NCBI GenBank assembly: GCA_022842995.1
Contig: JALHOM010000008.1
Location: forward strand, 1-51,400
DNA length: 51,400 bases
Direction of reading: 5' to 3'
From: Candidatus Saccharimonadota bacterium
Lineage (GTDB): Bacteria; Patescibacteriota; Saccharimonadia; Saccharimonadales; 2-12-FULL-41-12
Position 1 is the stretch's first letter; each line of letters opens with the position of its first letter. The position numbers were made by a program, and so were the translations under genes. Positions 30,240-38,037 of the stretch are shown piece by piece. Under the pieces are notes generated by a model. The model was not told where the DNA came from. It was given only the letters and a program-made list of their open reading frames with translations, and did no database searches.

Positions 30240-30662
30240 GAGTCAGGAGTCAAGATTCGCCTTACGGCGAAGGAAATCGGATCTAGTAACTAGTATCTAG
30301 CAACTAGTTCCCTGGATTCTCGTAGCTCTCTTTAATCTTTCGTCTTTCGTCTAACGGCTCTTGTCTCATAACTCATGACTCTAGATTTGAAATTTGAAAT
30401 TGGAAAATAGAAATTTGAAATCAGAGTAAAGTTTAAAGACTAAAGATTAAAGGTACTGAAACAGTAGCTACTCTTATCTCCTGTCTCTAAATCAGAAAAT
30501 AGAAAATAGAAAATAGAAATTAGGATTTGGCAGACGTCAAAATAAAGCCATTGCCAACCACAACCGAATAAAACATACTCAGTTAATTCCTAATTCCTAA
30601 TTCCTAATTCCTAATTCCTAATTCCTAATTCCTAATTCCTAATTCCTAATTCCTAATTCCTA
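30202..30662 (+). repeat. Modular heptamer-based dispersed element, copy A, ending in (CTAATTC)x10
   Basis: Exact blocks shared with copies B and C; array spans 30590-30659. Confidence 0.9.
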
Positions 30663-33415: not shown

Positions 33416-34942
33416 TTATCTTCGTTGCATACTATGATTTTTGATCCAGCCGTGGGCTACAGGAGTAAATCCATTGCTTGCGCCGGATTTATCGGCCTCA
33501 TCGAGCTGGCTAAATGGCATGAGGGTGAAGCCGATGGTAGTGCCCTCGCCTTCCTTGGATTTGACCCAAATGTTGCCATGATGCGCCGAAATAATTTCTT
33601 TGCACAAGTATAGTCCAAGACCGCTACCGGAAATATGATGTCGATTTCGGTGGTTGCGGTAGAACCGATTGAAGAGGTTAGGAACCACGGAGTCTGGTAT
33701 GCCGACGCCGTCATCGCTCACCGTGGTTAAAACTGCTCCGTCGGTGTCGAGTTTGACTTCGATCCTAATAGGTTTTTTGTCATCTGGTGAGTATTTAATC
33801 GCGTTATCAATCAGATTGGTGATAACTTCGCCGAGGCTAATGTTGTCAATCCCGACTTTTGGTAAATTAGGCGCGACGCTGAGCGAAATTGTTTTACCGC
33901 GTACACTGGCTCTGTTTTGTGAGTTGGCAACGATAGAAGTTATATGCTCTTCCCACGAGGATTCCTGAAGCTGAAGATTAAGTTGGTTTTGGTCAACCTT
34001 CAAGACACTGAGGATGTTGGTCATAAAAGTCGTGAGGTTATCTGTCGAGGCGCCGAGTCGATCTATGTAGGTCTGGGTCTGACTATCGACTTTACCTGCC
34101 ATTTCTTGCTGCAAAGCTTCGACGTAGCCTCTCATGATGGTGAGAGGAGTTCTTATTTCGTGCACCGACAAGGCAATCATGCTGAGGGCGGTTTCTTCTT
34201 GGTCGTATTGGTCGTAATGACTGAAGAAAACTAATAAAGTTTCGATACCGCTGGGATGTTTTTGACGGTAATGAGCGGCAACATCGTAGTAGCTTTTTAC
34301 GGTGCCGTCATTGGAACTGACTTCGACTTTTTGCCATTGAGTAGTGGCGTTAATACTTTTTTGTTTGGTCTGGGCGATCCAGTCAGGTAAGGCAATGGAG
34401 TTGGACTTCATGTTAAGCAAATTAGTGAGCGGAACATCTTTCCAGGTGCCAAGCGAAAATGCACTTATGGCGGCAGTATTGGCGAAGGCGATATTGCCTT
34501 GATCATTTAAGCCCAGTACTGATACCGGCAAAGAGTCGAGAAGGTCGGAATTTTGATCTTTAACCATGGGGATATTGGCCGAAGATAAGTTCGACGATAG
34601 GTCGTAAATTTGCCTCGTGAGATTGGCTACTAGTTCACGACCGACGCCGAGCTTATCGACATTTGGCGCGGCAACTAAATGTTCGTTTGGCGAGATATGG
34701 TAAATCGCCTGCGCCAGATATTGAGTTGGTTTGATCAATAGCGCAGCCAAAACATTGCCCACGATAACAGACGCGATAATCACTACCGAAGTGACAATGA
34801 CGATAACGATCTCCCTGTCGAGCACCGTATTGGCAAGTAAAATATAGGCCGTTCCAGAGGCTAATGCTCCAGTGATTATGAGTCCAAAGACTAAATACAG
34901 GCTGAAGGTTTTTTTGAAGGAATCGAGGTGTCCACCGCTCAT
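33416..34942 (-). CDS. Membrane sensor histidine kinase (2 TM, PAS-like, HisKA, HATPase)
   Basis: VHEIRTPL, NLIDNAIKYS, DDGVGI, SGSGLGL. Confidence 0.95.
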   Translation of the reverse strand: MSGGHLDSFKKTFSLYLVFGLIITGALASGTAYILLANTVLDREIVIVIVTSVVIIASVIVGNVLAALLIKPTQYLAQAIYHISPNEHLVAAPNVDKLGVGRELVANLTRQIYDLSSNLSSANIPMVKDQNSDLLDSLPVSVLGLNDQGNIAFANTAAISAFSLGTWKDVPLTNLLNMKSNSIALPDWIAQTKQKSINATTQWQKVEVSSNDGTVKSYYDVAAHYRQKHPSGIETLLVFFSHYDQYDQEETALSMIALSVHEIRTPLTIMRGYVEALQQEMAGKVDSQTQTYIDRLGASTDNLTTFMTNILSVLKVDQNQLNLQLQESSWEEHITSIVANSQNRASVRGKTISLSVAPNLPKVGIDNISLGEVITNLIDNAIKYSPDDKKPIRIEVKLDTDGAVLTTVSDDGVGIPDSVVPNLFNRFYRNHRNRHHISGSGLGLYLCKEIISAHHGNIWVKSKEGEGTTIGFTLMPFSQLDEADKSGASNGFTPVAHGWIKNHSMQRR

Positions 34943-34962: not shown

Positions 34963-36198
34963 CTACGGCGTATAAGTGACTTGCGAGTCGTTTTTAAGAA
35001 GAGTGATCCATGTCTGGCCAGGGTTGAGTCCAATAATCTGCCCGGCGGCGTCTGTGAAGACAATCTGTTCTTTTTCGCTGGCTTTGGTCCAGGTTCCTTT
35101 GGTGACTTGGCCATCCTGAAAGATGGTTACCGACCCGCTGCCGACAACTTGGTAGACCGAATATATCCCGTTGCGTGAATACGGGACGCTCATTGCAACC
35201 AAGACAGTCGGGCTTATTTGGACGCCGGATCTATGGTCGGTATGGGGCTGGCCAGCAAGATTTCGCTTATATGTATTGCTTGCAGCGTCGAAAGTGTATG
35301 ACGTGTTGTATAGTGCGCTCGAGATGGCCATATTAATTGATGAGGCAGTTGGTGTTTGACCTTTTTTCTCGGTTTTTCGGGTAAAGCTTTTTACGTCGCT
35401 AGTAGTATAGCCTCGTTTTTGAGAGGCTTTATCAAGTGCTGCTGTGCTGCTGTAGAGATTGTGTGGTGCGTAGCGGTCCGAGGCACGCTGGAATGCGGCG
35501 CCATTGGCTCCGTGGTCCATGTCTTTAAGCCCGAGACTATTTATTTTTGCCAATCCATCAGCGCTTCCTCCGGCATGAACGAAAACAGGGTCAAACGGGG
35601 CTGACAAAACAGCGTAATAAGGCCTAACGGAGCGGATCGGTCCAATATAATCTGGTTGTGTTTCAAGAAAAGAGGCATTGAAGCGTGTAATCCCGCCCTC
35701 GGAGATGGCTTCAAATACCACACCGGCATCTTTGAGGCCGGCTTGCGGTCGGGCTTCCGGGCTGTTTTCTATCTGTACGGACGTAACTGGTCTTTTGTTA
35801 AGCTCGGGGCTTATTTGGACGCCGGTAAGTCGTGAAGCTTCGGTGGTTGGTTTGGGCGGTGGTGTGGGAGTTGGGGTGGCTTGAACGGCTTGCGTTTTTG
35901 GTGGTTCAGGTGCGGGCTTATTGAATACAAAGGCGTAAGCTCCGCCTCCCCCGCCCAGCAGAACAGCTACAGAGGCTAGCGAGATAATCAGTTTTTGTTT
36001 TTTGGTGAGATGGCTTAACCAGCCGAAAGGATTTCGGGCATGAGGCATACTCACATGTTCGGGGACGACGACAAAGCCGTCTTGTGAGTGGTTAGAAAAA
36101 GCGTCCCTTTCGGAGCTCTGTCCTTCGTGGGGTTGGTTTTGGATTTCTTCTTTTTTATTTTGGTCCTCAAAAATAGGAGGACGGATGTCGTCTACCAT
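34963..36198 (-). CDS. DUF3048-like membrane-anchored surface protein
   Basis: IENSPEARPQAGL, EGGITRF, GPIRSVR, APHNLY; Pro-rich linker after the TM. Confidence 0.85.
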   Translation of the reverse strand: MVDDIRPPIFEDQNKKEEIQNQPHEGQSSERDAFSNHSQDGFVVVPEHVSMPHARNPFGWLSHLTKKQKLIISLASVAVLLGGGGGAYAFVFNKPAPEPPKTQAVQATPTPTPPPKPTTEASRLTGVQISPELNKRPVTSVQIENSPEARPQAGLKDAGVVFEAISEGGITRFNASFLETQPDYIGPIRSVRPYYAVLSAPFDPVFVHAGGSADGLAKINSLGLKDMDHGANGAAFQRASDRYAPHNLYSSTAALDKASQKRGYTTSDVKSFTRKTEKKGQTPTASSINMAISSALYNTSYTFDAASNTYKRNLAGQPHTDHRSGVQISPTVLVAMSVPYSRNGIYSVYQVVGSGSVTIFQDGQVTKGTWTKASEKEQIVFTDAAGQIIGLNPGQTWITLLKNDSQVTYTP

Positions 36199-36219
36199 TA
36201 CTTTATTTTACCATATGGG

Positions 36220-36400
36220 GGATTAGAAATTAGCTGATTACGTTTTATTCATTCGTGGTTGGCGATGTCTTTTTGGTATCTATCATTTTCTAATTTCAAT
36301 TTTCTGATTTAGAGACAAGAGATAAGAGTAGCTACTGTTTCAGTACCCTTAAACTTTAGTCTTTAAACTTTAGTCTTTGAACTTTACTCTGATTTCAAAT
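36220..36400 (-). repeat. Modular heptamer-based element, copy C (inverted, partial)
   Basis: 29-nt exact inverted match (36319-36347 vs 30452-30480) plus the shared right-end motif. Confidence 0.9.
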
Positions 36401-36443
36401 TTACCCTAAAATTGTGACGACCGTCACAATTTTAGGGTAAATT
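36398..36443. repeat. Perfect 21-bp inverted repeat with GACC loop
   Basis: AATTTACCCTAAAATTGTGAC-GACC-GTCACAATTTTAGGGTAAATT. Confidence 0.95.
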
Positions 36444-36538
36444 GTTGATATGTCCAAACCGGCTTATTCCGCTTGATTACAGAGGTTGGCTACATAGAAT
36501 AGATGACTCAACTAAAGAGCCAGAAGAACAAAAGAAAA

Positions 36539-36578
36539 TTACCCAATTTTTGTGACGACCGTCACAAAAATTGGGTAA
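36539..36578. repeat. Perfect 18-bp inverted repeat with GACC loop
   Basis: TTACCCAATTTTTGTGAC-GACC-GTCACAAAAATTGGGTAA. Confidence 0.95.
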
Positions 36579-36606
36579 ATAATGGCACGTAACGTTTGCA
36601 ACGAAA

Positions 36607-38037
36607 TTATTGGGAAAGGGCTTCGAGTTGGGTGGAGATGCGGGAGAGGGAGCGGTCTTTGCGCAAAACAGCGAGGCTGCCGGCGAGTTCGGGGCTGGCC
36701 GGGCTTTGGGTGGTGGCAATTCGGATCAAGCTAAAGAGCACGGCGGGTTTTTGACCGGTTGACTCAAGTAGTTCGTTCAGGCAGTCTTGGATCTTCTCCG
36801 TTGACCATTCGCAGTTTTCGAGGGCGGTTTTGGCTTGGGTCAAGATGTCAATGAGTTCTGTGGTCTCAAGTTTTTTAAGTTGTTTGTGTGACGAAATTAG
36901 TTCGTGGTTGATCTGCAAGTCGATAAAGAAGAAGCGGGTTAGCTCGGGTATTTCGCTGTATTTTTTGAGACGTTCTTGAATCAGGCCGAGTACCGACTTT
37001 TTATAATCGTCATCGTATGCGTCAGATTCTTCGGGCCAGTATCTCGACGTTGCATTGTATAGTGACTCGATATCCATTTCACGGATATGAGCACCACTGA
37101 TCCATTGCATCCTGCGTTCGTCAAACCGGGCGCCAGAACTCTGGACTCTATCGAGTGAAAATTTGGCTATGAGTTCATCGACACTGAATATTTCCTGCTC
37201 TGTTCCGTCGTTCCATCCCAGAGTGGCTATGAAATTCAAGAATGCCGGCAACGGGATGCCCTCGTGGATGTATTCAAGCGTATCCTTAGCTCCGTCGCGC
37301 TTGGAAAGTTTTTTGTTCCCTGCCTCGTTCATAATCGGCGGTACGCTTGCAATCACCGGCGGCGTTATCTCGAGAGCCTCATAAAGGTTGAGGTAGTTTG
37401 GGGTGCTGGCTAAAAACTCTTGTCCACGGATAATATGGGTTATCTGCATCTCGGCATCATCGACAATGTGGGCAAAATTATATGTCGGGAAACCGTCTGA
37501 TTTTATAAGGATAAAGTCATCAATTACCTCTGGTCCGGTCTGGCGATCGCCCATGACTGCATCTGTCCATCGGTATTCTTTTGGATCGGATTTGAATCTT
37601 AAAGGTTTGCTGCCGTCCCAGTCGGTGCTCAAAGTTTCTGGTCGGTGATGACGGTACAAAAAAGCTCGCTTTTCTGCTTGGGCTTGCTCGCGAAAGGCTT
37701 GGACTTCTTCTGTAGTATATGGGTCGACGTATGCCCTGCCCGATTCAAGGAGTTTTAATGCCCATTTTTTATAGATATCGAGGCGCTCGCTTTGCCGGTA
37801 AGGACCGTAATCGCCACCAACATCAGGGCCTTCGTCATAGGTTAGTCCGAGTTCTTTTAGTGAACGCATAAGGTGTTCATCTGCGCCGGCGACTTCCCTC
37901 GCCTGGTCGGTATCCTCGAGACGCAAGATAAAATGTCCGTTACCCTGCCGTGCAAGCAGCCAGGCAAAGAGAGCGGTTCGTACGCCACCAACGTGCATAT
38001 AGCCGGTTGGGCTTGGGGCAAAACGTGTTCGTATCAT
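36607..38037 (-). CDS. gltX: Glutamate--tRNA ligase
   Basis: TRFAPSPTGYMHVGG (HIGH), RLEDTDQ, KLSKR (KMSKS). Confidence 0.98.
   Translation of the reverse strand: MIRTRFAPSPTGYMHVGGVRTALFAWLLARQGNGHFILRLEDTDQAREVAGADEHLMRSLKELGLTYDEGPDVGGDYGPYRQSERLDIYKKWALKLLESGRAYVDPYTTEEVQAFREQAQAEKRAFLYRHHRPETLSTDWDGSKPLRFKSDPKEYRWTDAVMGDRQTGPEVIDDFILIKSDGFPTYNFAHIVDDAEMQITHIIRGQEFLASTPNYLNLYEALEITPPVIASVPPIMNEAGNKKLSKRDGAKDTLEYIHEGIPLPAFLNFIATLGWNDGTEQEIFSVDELIAKFSLDRVQSSGARFDERRMQWISGAHIREMDIESLYNATSRYWPEESDAYDDDYKKSVLGLIQERLKKYSEIPELTRFFFIDLQINHELISSHKQLKKLETTELIDILTQAKTALENCEWSTEKIQDCLNELLESTGQKPAVLFSLIRIATTQSPASPELAGSLAVLRKDRSLSRISTQLEALSQ

What the first reader, a model, noticed from the sequence alone, without database searches (positions are those of the whole stretch)
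36398..36578. Twin perfect palindromes 138 bp apart with identical core, covarying arms and a CRP-like centre
Seen: TTACCC-TAAAAT-TGTGACGACCGTCACA-ATTTTA-GGGTAA and TTACCC-AATTTT-TGTGACGACCGTCACA-AAAATT-GGGTAA. The 6-bp segments differ between copies yet each copy stays perfectly self-complementary. The core fits TGTGA-N6-TCACA, the established CRP/FNR-family site geometry. The first palindrome is fused to the end of heptamer element C. The pair brackets a ~95-bp segment with a ~39-codon open frame. Inference: recombination or cassette boundaries, cruciform-forming ends of a mini-element, or a DNA-looping operator pair, rather than a simple gltX terminator.
Basis: partly seen in the sequence, partly recalled or inferred. 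Interest (0 to 1): 0.7.

Follow-up and report, generated by a model that had tools for sequence, protein, structure and literature searches.

The report
Palindrome-ended mini-element behind gltX
The two 40-base mirror-symmetric sites are the ends of a 181-base unit found twice in this Saccharibacteria genome. They match the palindromes that bracket a small PaaX-like DNA-binding-protein gene elsewhere in the genome, so they are most likely that protein's recognition sites rather than CRP sites or a plain terminator.

Summary
Two long palindromes (36398-36443 and 36539-36578) share the core TGTGACGACCGTCACA, lie 138 bp apart, and differ in a 6-bp arm segment that stays mirror-symmetric. They are not isolated. 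The genome holds seven copies of TTTACCC-N6-TGTGACG-RY-CGTCACA-N6-GGGTAAA. Two of them tightly bracket a 161-aa gene for a winged-helix plus Cas2-fold (PaaX-like) protein on another contig. Two paralogous genes are bracketed by their own CGATCG-centred palindrome families. In 47 of 80 homologous loci across Patescibacteria, similar palindromes sit at the gene ends. A second twin on contig C4 has the same 138-bp spacing and a spacer that is 43% identical without gaps (P=0.0003), so the twin is a discrete 181-bp duplicated unit. The sister species carries its own twin at the same gltX-DUF3048 gap, with the same outer box but a different core. More distant relatives have only 28-161 bp in that gap. 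My best reading is that these are cognate recognition palindromes of the PaaX-like protein, carried on a once-mobile mini-element inserted into an old gltX-DUF3048-kinase operon. The CRP resemblance looks coincidental, and terminator function is at most secondary.

The parts
36398..36443 (.). Palindrome 1 (type a). It has 22-bp arms around the centre AC: outer box AATTTACCC, variable TAAAAT, core TGTGACG-AC-CGTCACA.
   Evidence: hairpin -28.4 kcal/mol on either strand. Near-identical copies lie at C7:33371-33410 and C4:52133-52172.
36444..36538 (.). Spacer of the unit (about 92-95 bp). It is 40/92 identical, ungapped and only in register 0, to the spacer of the C4 twin. A 39-codon open + frame occurs in both copies.
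   Evidence: It shows no similarity to the PaaX-like gene ends or to the sister species' spacer.
36539..36578 (.). Palindrome 2 (type b). It has 19-bp arms around the centre AC: outer box TTACCC, variable AATTTT, same core. On the minus (coding) strand it is followed by TTTTCTTTTG.
   Evidence: A related copy lies at C4:52269-52302.
36398..36580 (.). The whole palindrome-bounded unit (about 181 bp), paralogous to C4:52130-52305.
   Evidence: centre-to-centre distance is 138 bp in both copies. The palindromes are 94-98% identical, the spacers 43%, and the flanks are unrelated.
36222..36397 (-). Separate repeated upstream element made of short words, including three 14-nt tandem repeats at 36349-36390. 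It is paralogous to window 30411-30600 and to other loci. Its homology ends where palindrome 1 begins.
36205..36213 (-). TGGTAAAAT, an extended -10-like box 6 nt before the DUF3048 start codon and conserved in the sister species. This places the likely promoter about 185-370 bp from the palindromes.
   Evidence: sequence only; inference.
36607..38037 (-). gltX (glutamyl-tRNA synthetase). Its stop codon lies 28 nt before palindrome 2.
   Evidence: PF00749 at 1.5e-82, PF19269.
34963..36198 (-). DUF3048 protein gene, the first gene after the unit. It is followed by a histidine kinase (33416-34942).
   Evidence: The synteny gltX-DUF3048-HK-RR is seen.

Best explanation
The twin palindromes are the two ends of a roughly 181-bp palindrome-spacer-palindrome unit. 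The unit was copied to at least two places in this genome. It sits inside what was ancestrally a tight gltX-DUF3048-histidine kinase-response regulator operon. Its ends belong to a seven-copy family, TTTACCC-N6-TGTGACG-RY-CGTCACA-N6-GGGTAAA. I infer that this family is the recognition site of a small winged-helix plus Cas2-fold (PaaX-like, lacking the ligand domain) protein encoded at C7:26382-26867, because that gene is itself bracketed by two copies of the same site.

The inferred mechanism is as follows. The protein binds as a dimer, or a dimer of dimers, to the conserved outer box and to the core around the CGRYCG centre. The A/T-rich 6-bp segment between them is not read base by base, yet it stays mirror-symmetric. 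Either the site must be able to form a hairpin or cruciform, or arm-to-arm templated correction keeps it symmetric. At this locus the bound pair, held at a fixed 138-bp spacing, would act as a protein-dependent boundary or roadblock between gltX and the two-component operon. RNA hairpin effects such as 3'-end protection or partial termination would be a by-product.

Shown here: family membership, the bracketing of the gene, the paralogous unit, the positional conservation in the sister species, and the association across the phylum. Inferred: binding itself, the binding stoichiometry, and the regulatory effect.
For: 1. There are seven family copies in the 1.11-Mb genome and none in 60 relatives.
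2. Copies at C7:26331-26371 and C7:26870-26910 lie 10 nt before the start and 2 nt after the stop of a 161-aa gene. That gene matches PF20803 PaaX_M (4.5e-17) and weakly Cas2. Its model has pLDDT 86.6, and the best PDB fold match is E. coli PaaX 8a39, followed by Cas2/VapD.
3. Two paralogues (C1:44295-44768 and C1:4280-4861) are bracketed by two other CGATCG-centred families.
4. In 80 homologous loci across Patescibacteria, 61 of 160 gene-end windows hold a palindrome with arms of at least 12 bp, against 2 of 145 control windows. The centre is CGRYCG in 42 of those 61.
5. The sister species (DUF3048 83% identical) has a twin at the same intergenic spot. It shares the outer box TACCCTAAA, but both copies carry the core GGTACCG-RY-CGGTACC. 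This is concerted change, as expected for sites that track a species-specific factor.
6. Between the C8 and C4 units the palindromes stay 94-98% identical. The spacers have fallen to 43% identity without a single indel. This indicates selection on the ends and on their spacing.
7. The gene-flanking copies are poor hairpins (-9 to -15 kcal/mol) yet keep the outer box and the CGATCGTCACA half-site. This argues for sequence-specific reading.
8. Closer protein homologues have more similar half-sites: 0.35 identity below 35% protein identity, and 0.62 at 50-80%.
Against: No binding or expression data exist. Only four DNA metagenomes hold this sequence.

The palindromes lie about 185-370 bp from the likely DUF3048 promoter, which is unusual for a repressor operator.

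The protein-to-site correlation is weak (Mantel P = 0.08) and is confounded by phylogeny.

Mirror covariation of the supposedly unread N6 segment is not explained by double-stranded DNA binding alone.

The sister species' twin is 166 bp apart rather than 138 bp, so no universal helical phasing holds.

I could not find the sister species' cognate protein. The closest database homologue of the C7 protein is only 49% identical.

The PaaX-like module is absent next to the UvrD-like gene in the sister species, and the solo site at the VanY locus is not conserved there either. These turnovers fit a mobile element as well as they fit a regulon.
Confidence: 0.5

Rival explanations
1. The unit is a selfish, REPIN-like non-autonomous element. 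The wHTH-Cas2-fold protein would not be a regulator. It would be the trans-acting mobilisation or maintenance factor, a functional analogue of a RAYT. It would recognise hairpin or cruciform forms of the palindromes and cut or join at the CGRYCG centre. The twin would then be a doublet spread by that activity, with no host function.
For: The unit is discrete, with palindromic termini and two paralogous copies. The master gene is bracketed by the same sites, as RAYT genes are by REPs. Chimeric copies are joined exactly at the centre: C7:26870 has a type-b left arm with a type-a right arm, C1:71958 has a family-2 left half with a family-1 right half, and C2:64730 is similar. The centre dinucleotide is flipped relative to the homologous spacer, AC in C8 and GT in C4. 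Mirror covariation of arms implies hairpin pairing or templated copying. The Cas2-type Asp after strand 1 (FDI) is invariant. The module and the solo site are absent at syntenic places in the sister species. The same genome runs true RAYT-like palindrome systems in parallel.
Against: There are only seven copies. The spacers are near saturation while the ends are conserved in place. That pattern points to purifying selection at each locus rather than recent replicative spread. No target-site duplication can be read, because the flanking AATT is itself palindromic. No nuclease or recombinase activity is known for PaaX-type Cas2-like domains. No relatives were found in viral contigs. The spacers show no similarity to the gene ends, so the unit is not an obvious deletion derivative.
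Confidence: 0.25
2. The palindromes are RNA-level elements only. They would be a duplicated intrinsic terminator or mRNA-stabilising hairpins behind gltX, as REP hairpins act in E. coli operons, with no dedicated protein.
For: Palindrome 2 on the coding strand is an 18-bp stem followed by TTTTCTTTTG, 28 nt after the gltX stop. The region folds with z = -8.5. All four twin palindromes read CGGTCG on the local coding strand.
Against: Palindrome 1 has no T-tract, and neither sister-species palindrome has one. Typical terminators in this genome are short GC-rich stems with T-runs. Relatives have a 28-bp gltX-DUF3048 gap, so no terminator is needed there. Family copies occur in front of genes and around a specific gene. 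The gene-flanking copies fold poorly but keep the sequence boxes. G-U versus A-C asymmetry does not follow the transcribed strand.
Confidence: 0.12
3. The palindromes are an operator pair for a CRP/FNR-family regulator (TGTGA-N6-TCACA).
For: The core fits the CRP consensus geometry. Two genes with a CRP-type HTH exist, at C4:10162 and C8:57550.
Against: Four of the five TGTGA-N6-TCACA matches in the genome are copies of this one 40-bp palindrome family. There is no degenerate regulon. The N6 (CGRYCG) is the most conserved part across families and phyla. The gene-flanking copies have TATGCCG or TATGACG in place of one TGTGA half. The sister species' sites have GGTACC arms. The motif is absent from 60 relatives.
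Confidence: 0.04
4. The unit is a tiny gene cassette. The 35-37-codon + strand frame between the palindromes would encode a micro-protein, in the same layout as the palindrome-gene-palindrome module.
For: The same frame is open in both paralogous units, and no indels have occurred. Identity by codon position is 11/31, 18/30 and 11/31, highest at position 2.
Against: The periodicity is marginal (about P = 0.05 after allowing for three phases). The peptides share only 6 of 29 unique residues. No ribosome-binding site or conserved start is evident. The frame is antisense to the neighbouring genes in C8. The sister species' twin has no equivalent frame.
Confidence: 0.05

Closest known systems
REP / REPIN elements with their RAYT (Y1 HUH) genes in Proteobacteria
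   Same: Short intergenic palindromes occur singly and as doublets. The gene of the presumed partner protein is bracketed by the same palindromes. Each paralogue has its own palindrome family. Arm changes are compensatory. The elements lie inside operons behind gene ends.
   Different: The bracketed gene is a wHTH plus Cas2-fold (PaaX_M) protein, not a Y1 transposase. The genome's five Y1_Tnp genes go with other palindromes. There is no 5' GTAG. The palindromes are long (38-46 bp), perfect and centred on CGRYCG. Copy number is very low. The doublet spacer has diverged while the ends are conserved.
PaaX repressor and its operators (E. coli, Pseudomonas; PDB 8a39)
   Same: Best fold match and a Pfam PaaX_M hit. 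An N-terminal winged helix is joined to a Cas2-like dimerisation domain. A palindromic site overlaps the likely -10 of its own gene.
   Different: There is no PaaX_C ligand domain and no paa genes. The sites are 40-bp perfect palindromes with a conserved CGATCG centre. A second copy follows the stop codon. Orphan copies are carried on a duplicated mini-unit.
MITE-type elements with regulatory side effects (for example Neisseria Correia elements, Rickettsia RPEs)
   Same: It is a discrete unit of about 180 bp with inverted-repeat termini. It is inserted between co-transcribed genes, has paralogous copies, and forms strong RNA or DNA hairpins.
   Different: Each terminus is itself a full palindrome. 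No target-site duplication is readable. Only two copies exist. No transposase has been identified.
CRP/FNR binding site TGTGA-N6-TCACA
   Same: The core has the same letters and spacing.
   Different: See the membership test. The conservation pattern is inverted (the N6 is conserved and the arms are replaceable), and the site is embedded in a 40-bp palindrome tied to another protein family.

Membership tests
CRP/FNR operator | A 5-6-5 inverted repeat, TGTGA-N6-TCACA | tested here: met
   both copies match exactly.
CRP/FNR operator | Half-sites are the conserved part and the N6 is variable; a degenerate regulon of sites exists | tested here: not met
   Four of the five genome matches are copies of one 40-bp palindrome. 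The CGRYCG centre is the conserved element across three families and 42 of 61 flanking palindromes in other genomes. The sister species' sites have GGTACC arms.
CRP/FNR operator | A CRP-family regulator is encoded in the genome | tested here: met
   PF13545 hits over cut-off at C4:10162 and C8:57550. No site lies next to either gene.
Intrinsic (Rho-independent) terminator | A GC-rich stem immediately followed by a U-tract on the transcribed strand | tested here: inconclusive
   Palindrome 2 passes the scan. Palindrome 1 does not, and neither do the sister species' two palindromes. No RNA data exist.
REP/RAYT (REPIN) system | The palindromes flank a Y1 HUH transposase (RAYT) gene | tested here: not met
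   This family flanks a PaaX_M/Cas2-like gene. Y1_Tnp genes at C3:14146-14796, C11:42451-43074 and C4:56710-57390 are flanked by other palindromes.
REP/RAYT (REPIN) system | Dispersed intergenic copies, often as doublets, with compensatory stem changes | tested here: met
PaaX family regulator plus operator | The protein has a PaaX N-terminal wHTH, a central Cas2-like domain and a C-terminal ligand domain | tested here: not met
   Only PaaX_M is detected, and 161 aa leaves no room for PaaX_C. The fold search places PaaX first, but with TM 0.38.
PaaX family regulator plus operator | The protein binds the palindromic site | not testable with these tools
   This needs EMSA, footprinting or DAP-seq.
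MITE / non-autonomous transposon | A discrete unit with terminal inverted repeats and homologous internal sequence in several copies | tested here: met
   there are two units. Their spacers are 40/92 identical ungapped (P = 0.0003), and homology ends at the palindrome edges.
MITE / non-autonomous transposon | Target-site duplication and an identifiable transposase | tested here: inconclusive
   The flanks read AATT on both sides, but AATT is part of the palindrome. The right end of the C4 unit is truncated. No transposase is linked to the unit.

The most novel reading that the evidence does not exclude
wHTH-Cas2-fold (short PaaX-like) proteins and their CGRYCG-centred palindromes would form a previously undescribed selfish or semi-domesticated partnership that is widespread in Patescibacteria. 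It would be analogous to RAYT/REPIN but built on a Cas2 fold. The protein would recognise hairpin or cruciform forms of its own palindromes and break or join DNA at the centre. That activity would explain four observations: the perfect arm symmetry, the chimeric half-site copies, the flipped centres, and the spread of units such as this twin.
Probability: 0.2. Interest if true: 0.85.

Novelty: new variant of a known kind. Interest (0 to 1): 0.55.

Why it matters
Patescibacteria have very few recognisable regulators and almost no described regulatory or mobile DNA. This finding gives a testable pairing between one small protein family and a distinctive class of 40-bp palindromes. The pairing is seen from Saccharibacteria to Parcubacteria and Microgenomates. 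The twin behind gltX shows that such sites also travel as small units into operons. If the protein is a regulator, this provides a first operator code for the group. If it acts on DNA, it would be a new Cas2-fold mobile-element partner. That would bear on the origin of Cas2 and PaaX.

Tried and rejected
- Rfam gave no family at the locus or at the C4 and C7 copies.
- The core is absent from 60 relatives.
- Only four DNA metagenomes hold the sequence, so there is no RNA evidence. Their contigs break at the palindromes, and no empty-site variant was seen.
- Local alignment of the two twin spacers found nothing. Only the ungapped, centre-anchored comparison revealed the homology.
- The spacers do not resemble the ends of the PaaX-like gene or the sister species' spacer.
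- The IS200/IS605 or RAYT link was rejected for this family.
- A restriction-modification explanation for the CGATCG centre was rejected: 241 sites were observed against 286 expected, so the site is neither avoided nor enriched.
- The metagenome protein scan found no close orthologue, and none from the sister genome. The best database homologue is 49% identical.
- No relatives were found in viral contigs.
- The literature searches found nothing linking PaaX-like proteins, palindromes and CPR bacteria.
I therefore could not scan the sister genome for its cognate gene or test the C4 and C7 copies for population polymorphism.

Full report
**Observation**

Palindrome 1 spans 36398-36443, with 22-nt arms that are 100% complementary. 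Palindrome 2 spans 36539-36578, with 19-nt arms that are also 100% complementary. Each surrounds a 2-nt centre, AC, so the sites are perfect apart from that dinucleotide. Both contain TGTGACGACCGTCACA and both have the outer box TTACCC/GGGTAA.

The 6-bp segment between box and core is TAAAAT in the first and AATTTT in the second. It is mirrored exactly on the other arm. The centres are 138 bp apart. Chance does not explain this. The core with up to 3 mismatches is expected 0.14 times in the window. Shuffled genomes give no perfect palindromes with arms of 12 bp or more, whereas the real genome has 44. Folded as RNA, the region scores z = -8.5 against shuffles.

**Setting**

Both palindromes lie in the 408-bp gap between the stop of gltX (36607-38037, minus strand; PF00749 at 1.5e-82) and the start of a DUF3048 gene (34963-36198, minus strand). 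A histidine kinase follows.

The order gltX-DUF3048-kinase-response regulator is conserved in relatives. The gltX-DUF3048 gap is 28 bp in a 67%-identical relative, 161 bp in a 62% relative and 525 bp in the 83% sister species. The gap here has therefore been expanded by inserted material. One insert is a word-repeat element shared with window 30411-30600 and other loci; its homology ends where palindrome 1 begins. The other insert is the twin.

A conserved TGGTAAAAT lies 6 nt before the DUF3048 start in both species. The likely promoter is therefore about 185-370 bp from the palindromes. This is inference from sequence only.

**The family**

The genome (1.11 Mb, 30 contigs; earlier notes call it Saccharibacteria) holds seven copies of TTTACCC-N6-TGTGACG-RY-CGTCACA-N6-GGGTAAA. 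They are the twin here, a second twin at C4:52133-52172 and C4:52269-52302, a solo copy at C7:33371-33410, and two imperfect 41-nt copies at C7:26331-26371 and C7:26870-26910. None of 60 relatives has the core.

The last two copies sit 10 nt before the start and 2 nt after the stop of a 161-aa gene, C7:26382-26867. That protein matches PF20803 (the PaaX central Cas2-like domain, 4.5e-17) and matches Cas2 weakly. Its AlphaFold model (pLDDT 86.6) has an N-terminal helical or winged-helix half and a C-terminal ferredoxin-like half. The best PDB match is E. coli PaaX (8a39), followed by Cas2 and VapD.

Two paralogues are bracketed in the same way by two other palindrome families. C1:44295-44768 is bracketed by TACYACACTTTTTGAACGATCGTTCAAAAAGTGTRGTA. 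C1:4280-4861 is bracketed by GTAAAT-N6-CGCGATCGCG-N6-ATTTAC. Together the three families account for about 22 long CGRYCG-centred palindromes, and nearly all of them are intergenic.

**Generality**

I examined 80 loci from other Patescibacteria that encode homologues. In these, 61 of 160 gene-end windows carry a palindrome with arms of at least 12 bp, against 2 of 145 control windows 600 bp away. Forty-seven loci have at least one such palindrome and 14 have both. The centre is CGATCG in 31 of the 61, CGRYCG in 42, and CATATG in 8.

The tripartite layout recurs in unrelated genomes: a conserved outer box, a variable but mirror-symmetric middle, and a conserved core. Half-site similarity rises with protein identity, from 0.35 below 35% identity to 0.62 at 50-80%. 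The overall correlation is weak, however (Mantel P = 0.08). Earlier notes of this scan (e1-1071578, e1-2065078) had flagged the C1 and C7 bracketed genes. I re-derived both from the sequence.

**The twin is a unit**

The C4 twin has exactly the same centre-to-centre distance of 138 bp. Local alignment of the spacers found nothing. Anchored on the centres and compared without gaps, however, the spacers share 40 of 92 positions. Shuffles give 24.4 +/- 4.1 (P = 0.0003), and every other register gives 17-28.

The flanks outside the palindromes are unrelated. The palindromes themselves are 94-98% identical. The whole roughly 181-bp palindrome-spacer-palindrome unit was therefore duplicated. Since then the spacer has drifted nearly to saturation without a single indel, while the ends were kept. 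That points to selection on the ends and on their spacing.

The two centre dinucleotides are flipped relative to the homologous spacer: AC in C8 and GT in C4. This could reflect parallel mutation from GATC or flip-flop through a hairpin. The same 39-codon + strand frame is open in both units, and identity is highest at codon position 2 (18/30 against 11/31 at the other positions). That signal is marginal.

**Sister species**

At the same gltX-DUF3048 gap, the 83% relative has its own pair. One is a perfect palindrome, TACCCTAAATTAGGTACCGACCGGTACCTAATTTAGGGTA. The other is an imperfect CGATCG-centred copy 166 bp away. The outer box is shared with our sites, but the core is GGTACCG in both copies.

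The two sites thus changed in concert within each genome, as expected if they follow a species-specific trans factor. The sister's spacer shows no similarity to ours. The sister lacks a family-1-type site at the VanY locus, and it lacks the PaaX-like module next to the UvrD-like gene. Sites and module therefore turn over.

**Symmetry**

In family 1, positions 9-13 from the centre show two Watson-Crick pair types and no mismatched cell among the five dispersed copies. This includes an independent compensated A-T to G-C change in the decayed C4 copy. In family 3, positions 5-10 show 2-4 pair types.

Chimeric copies also exist, joined at the centre. C7:26870 has a type-b left arm and a type-a right arm. 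C1:71958 has a family-2 left half and a family-1 right half. C2:64730 is a similar chimera. The gene-flanking copies are poor hairpins but keep the boxes.

I conclude that sequence-specific reading of the outer box and core is likely. Something else, either hairpin or cruciform formation or arm-to-arm templated correction, keeps the unread middle symmetric.

**Rejected or weakened readings**

- CRP: the conservation pattern is the reverse of a CRP site, and four of five genome matches are this one palindrome. Two CRP-type genes do exist, so binding cannot be excluded.
- Plain terminator: only palindrome 2 has a T-rich tail. The sister species' sites have none, and relatives need no terminator there.
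- RAYT/IS200: five Y1_Tnp genes exist, and three are tightly flanked by palindromes, but those belong to other families.
- Restriction-modification bias at CGATCG: none was found.

**Verdict**

The twin is best seen as a palindrome-ended mini-unit. Its ends are probable recognition sites of a PaaX-like wHTH-Cas2-fold protein, and it is inserted into an old operon (confidence about 0.5).

The main rival is that the protein-palindrome pair is a REPIN/RAYT-like selfish system (about 0.25). It shares most of the evidence and differs mainly in what the protein does.

Noticed in passing
G000 C3:14091-14840, C11:42400-43111, C4:56665-57390 (outside the window): Three of the five Y1_Tnp (RAYT-like, HUH plus YIHxNP) genes are tightly flanked by their own perfect palindromes: TGTACAAGGAC-T-GTCCTTGTACA, TGCGCAGGGTC-T-GACCCTGCGCA and TTTGCAAGGATAAACCCTGCA. 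Further copies are dispersed, for example at window-contig C8:51574. The variable outer arms are again mirror-symmetric.
   Followed up: partly
window 36222-36397; also window 30411-30600, C8:50083-50197, C8:54402-54540, C7:39001-39308: A repeated upstream element built from short words (ATTTTCT, CTTTAGTCTTTAAA and a 40-nt TAGAAATTAGCTGATTACGTTTTATTC block) precedes several genes. The sister species has the CTTTAGTCTTTAATCTTT words before its DUF3048 gene too.
   Followed up: partly
window 36205-36213 (minus strand); C7:26364-26372: TGGTAAAAT / GGGTAAAAT lie 6-7 nt before the start codons of DUF3048 and of the PaaX-like gene. This suggests leaderless or near-leaderless transcription. In the PaaX-like gene the -10-like box is the right outer box of its upstream palindrome.
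   Followed up: no
G000 C1:71958-71997 and C1:72020-72060; C4:46918-46963 and C4:47037-47052; C2:24248-24333; C3:54005-54129: Other palindrome families also occur as pairs 55-105 bp apart. Some members are chimeras of half-sites from different families or subtypes, joined at the CGATCG centre.
   Followed up: partly
L095 3853-3950: A 62% relative has, in the same gltX-DUF3048 gap, an 18-bp inverted repeat (GTACCTAGGTTATTCCTC ... GAGGAATAACCTAGGTAC) split by about 62 nt, with CGATCG next to the left arm. It could be a decayed or interrupted member of the same kind of site.
   Followed up: no
L126 10916-11494; G000 C4:51800-52100: In the sister species, the VanY-to-membrane-protein gap holds a roughly 500-bp non-coding block bounded by CACTACTTTTTG...CAAAAAGTAGTG-type hairpins. 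It resembles the non-coding stretch just upstream of the C4 twin in this genome and may be a structured RNA or a repeat. Rfam finds nothing.
   Followed up: no
window 36560: One contig of metagenome X3 reads T instead of C at the inner edge of palindrome 2's right arm, giving a G-T opposition on the + strand. The same samples hold a 90-95% identical strain across gltX.
   Followed up: no
G000 C7:26382-26867: The public gene call for the PaaX-like protein is only 97 aa (P0121, 60% of the query). Homologues of 156-171 aa align over the full 161 aa, so the deposited start appears to be too far downstream.
   Followed up: partly
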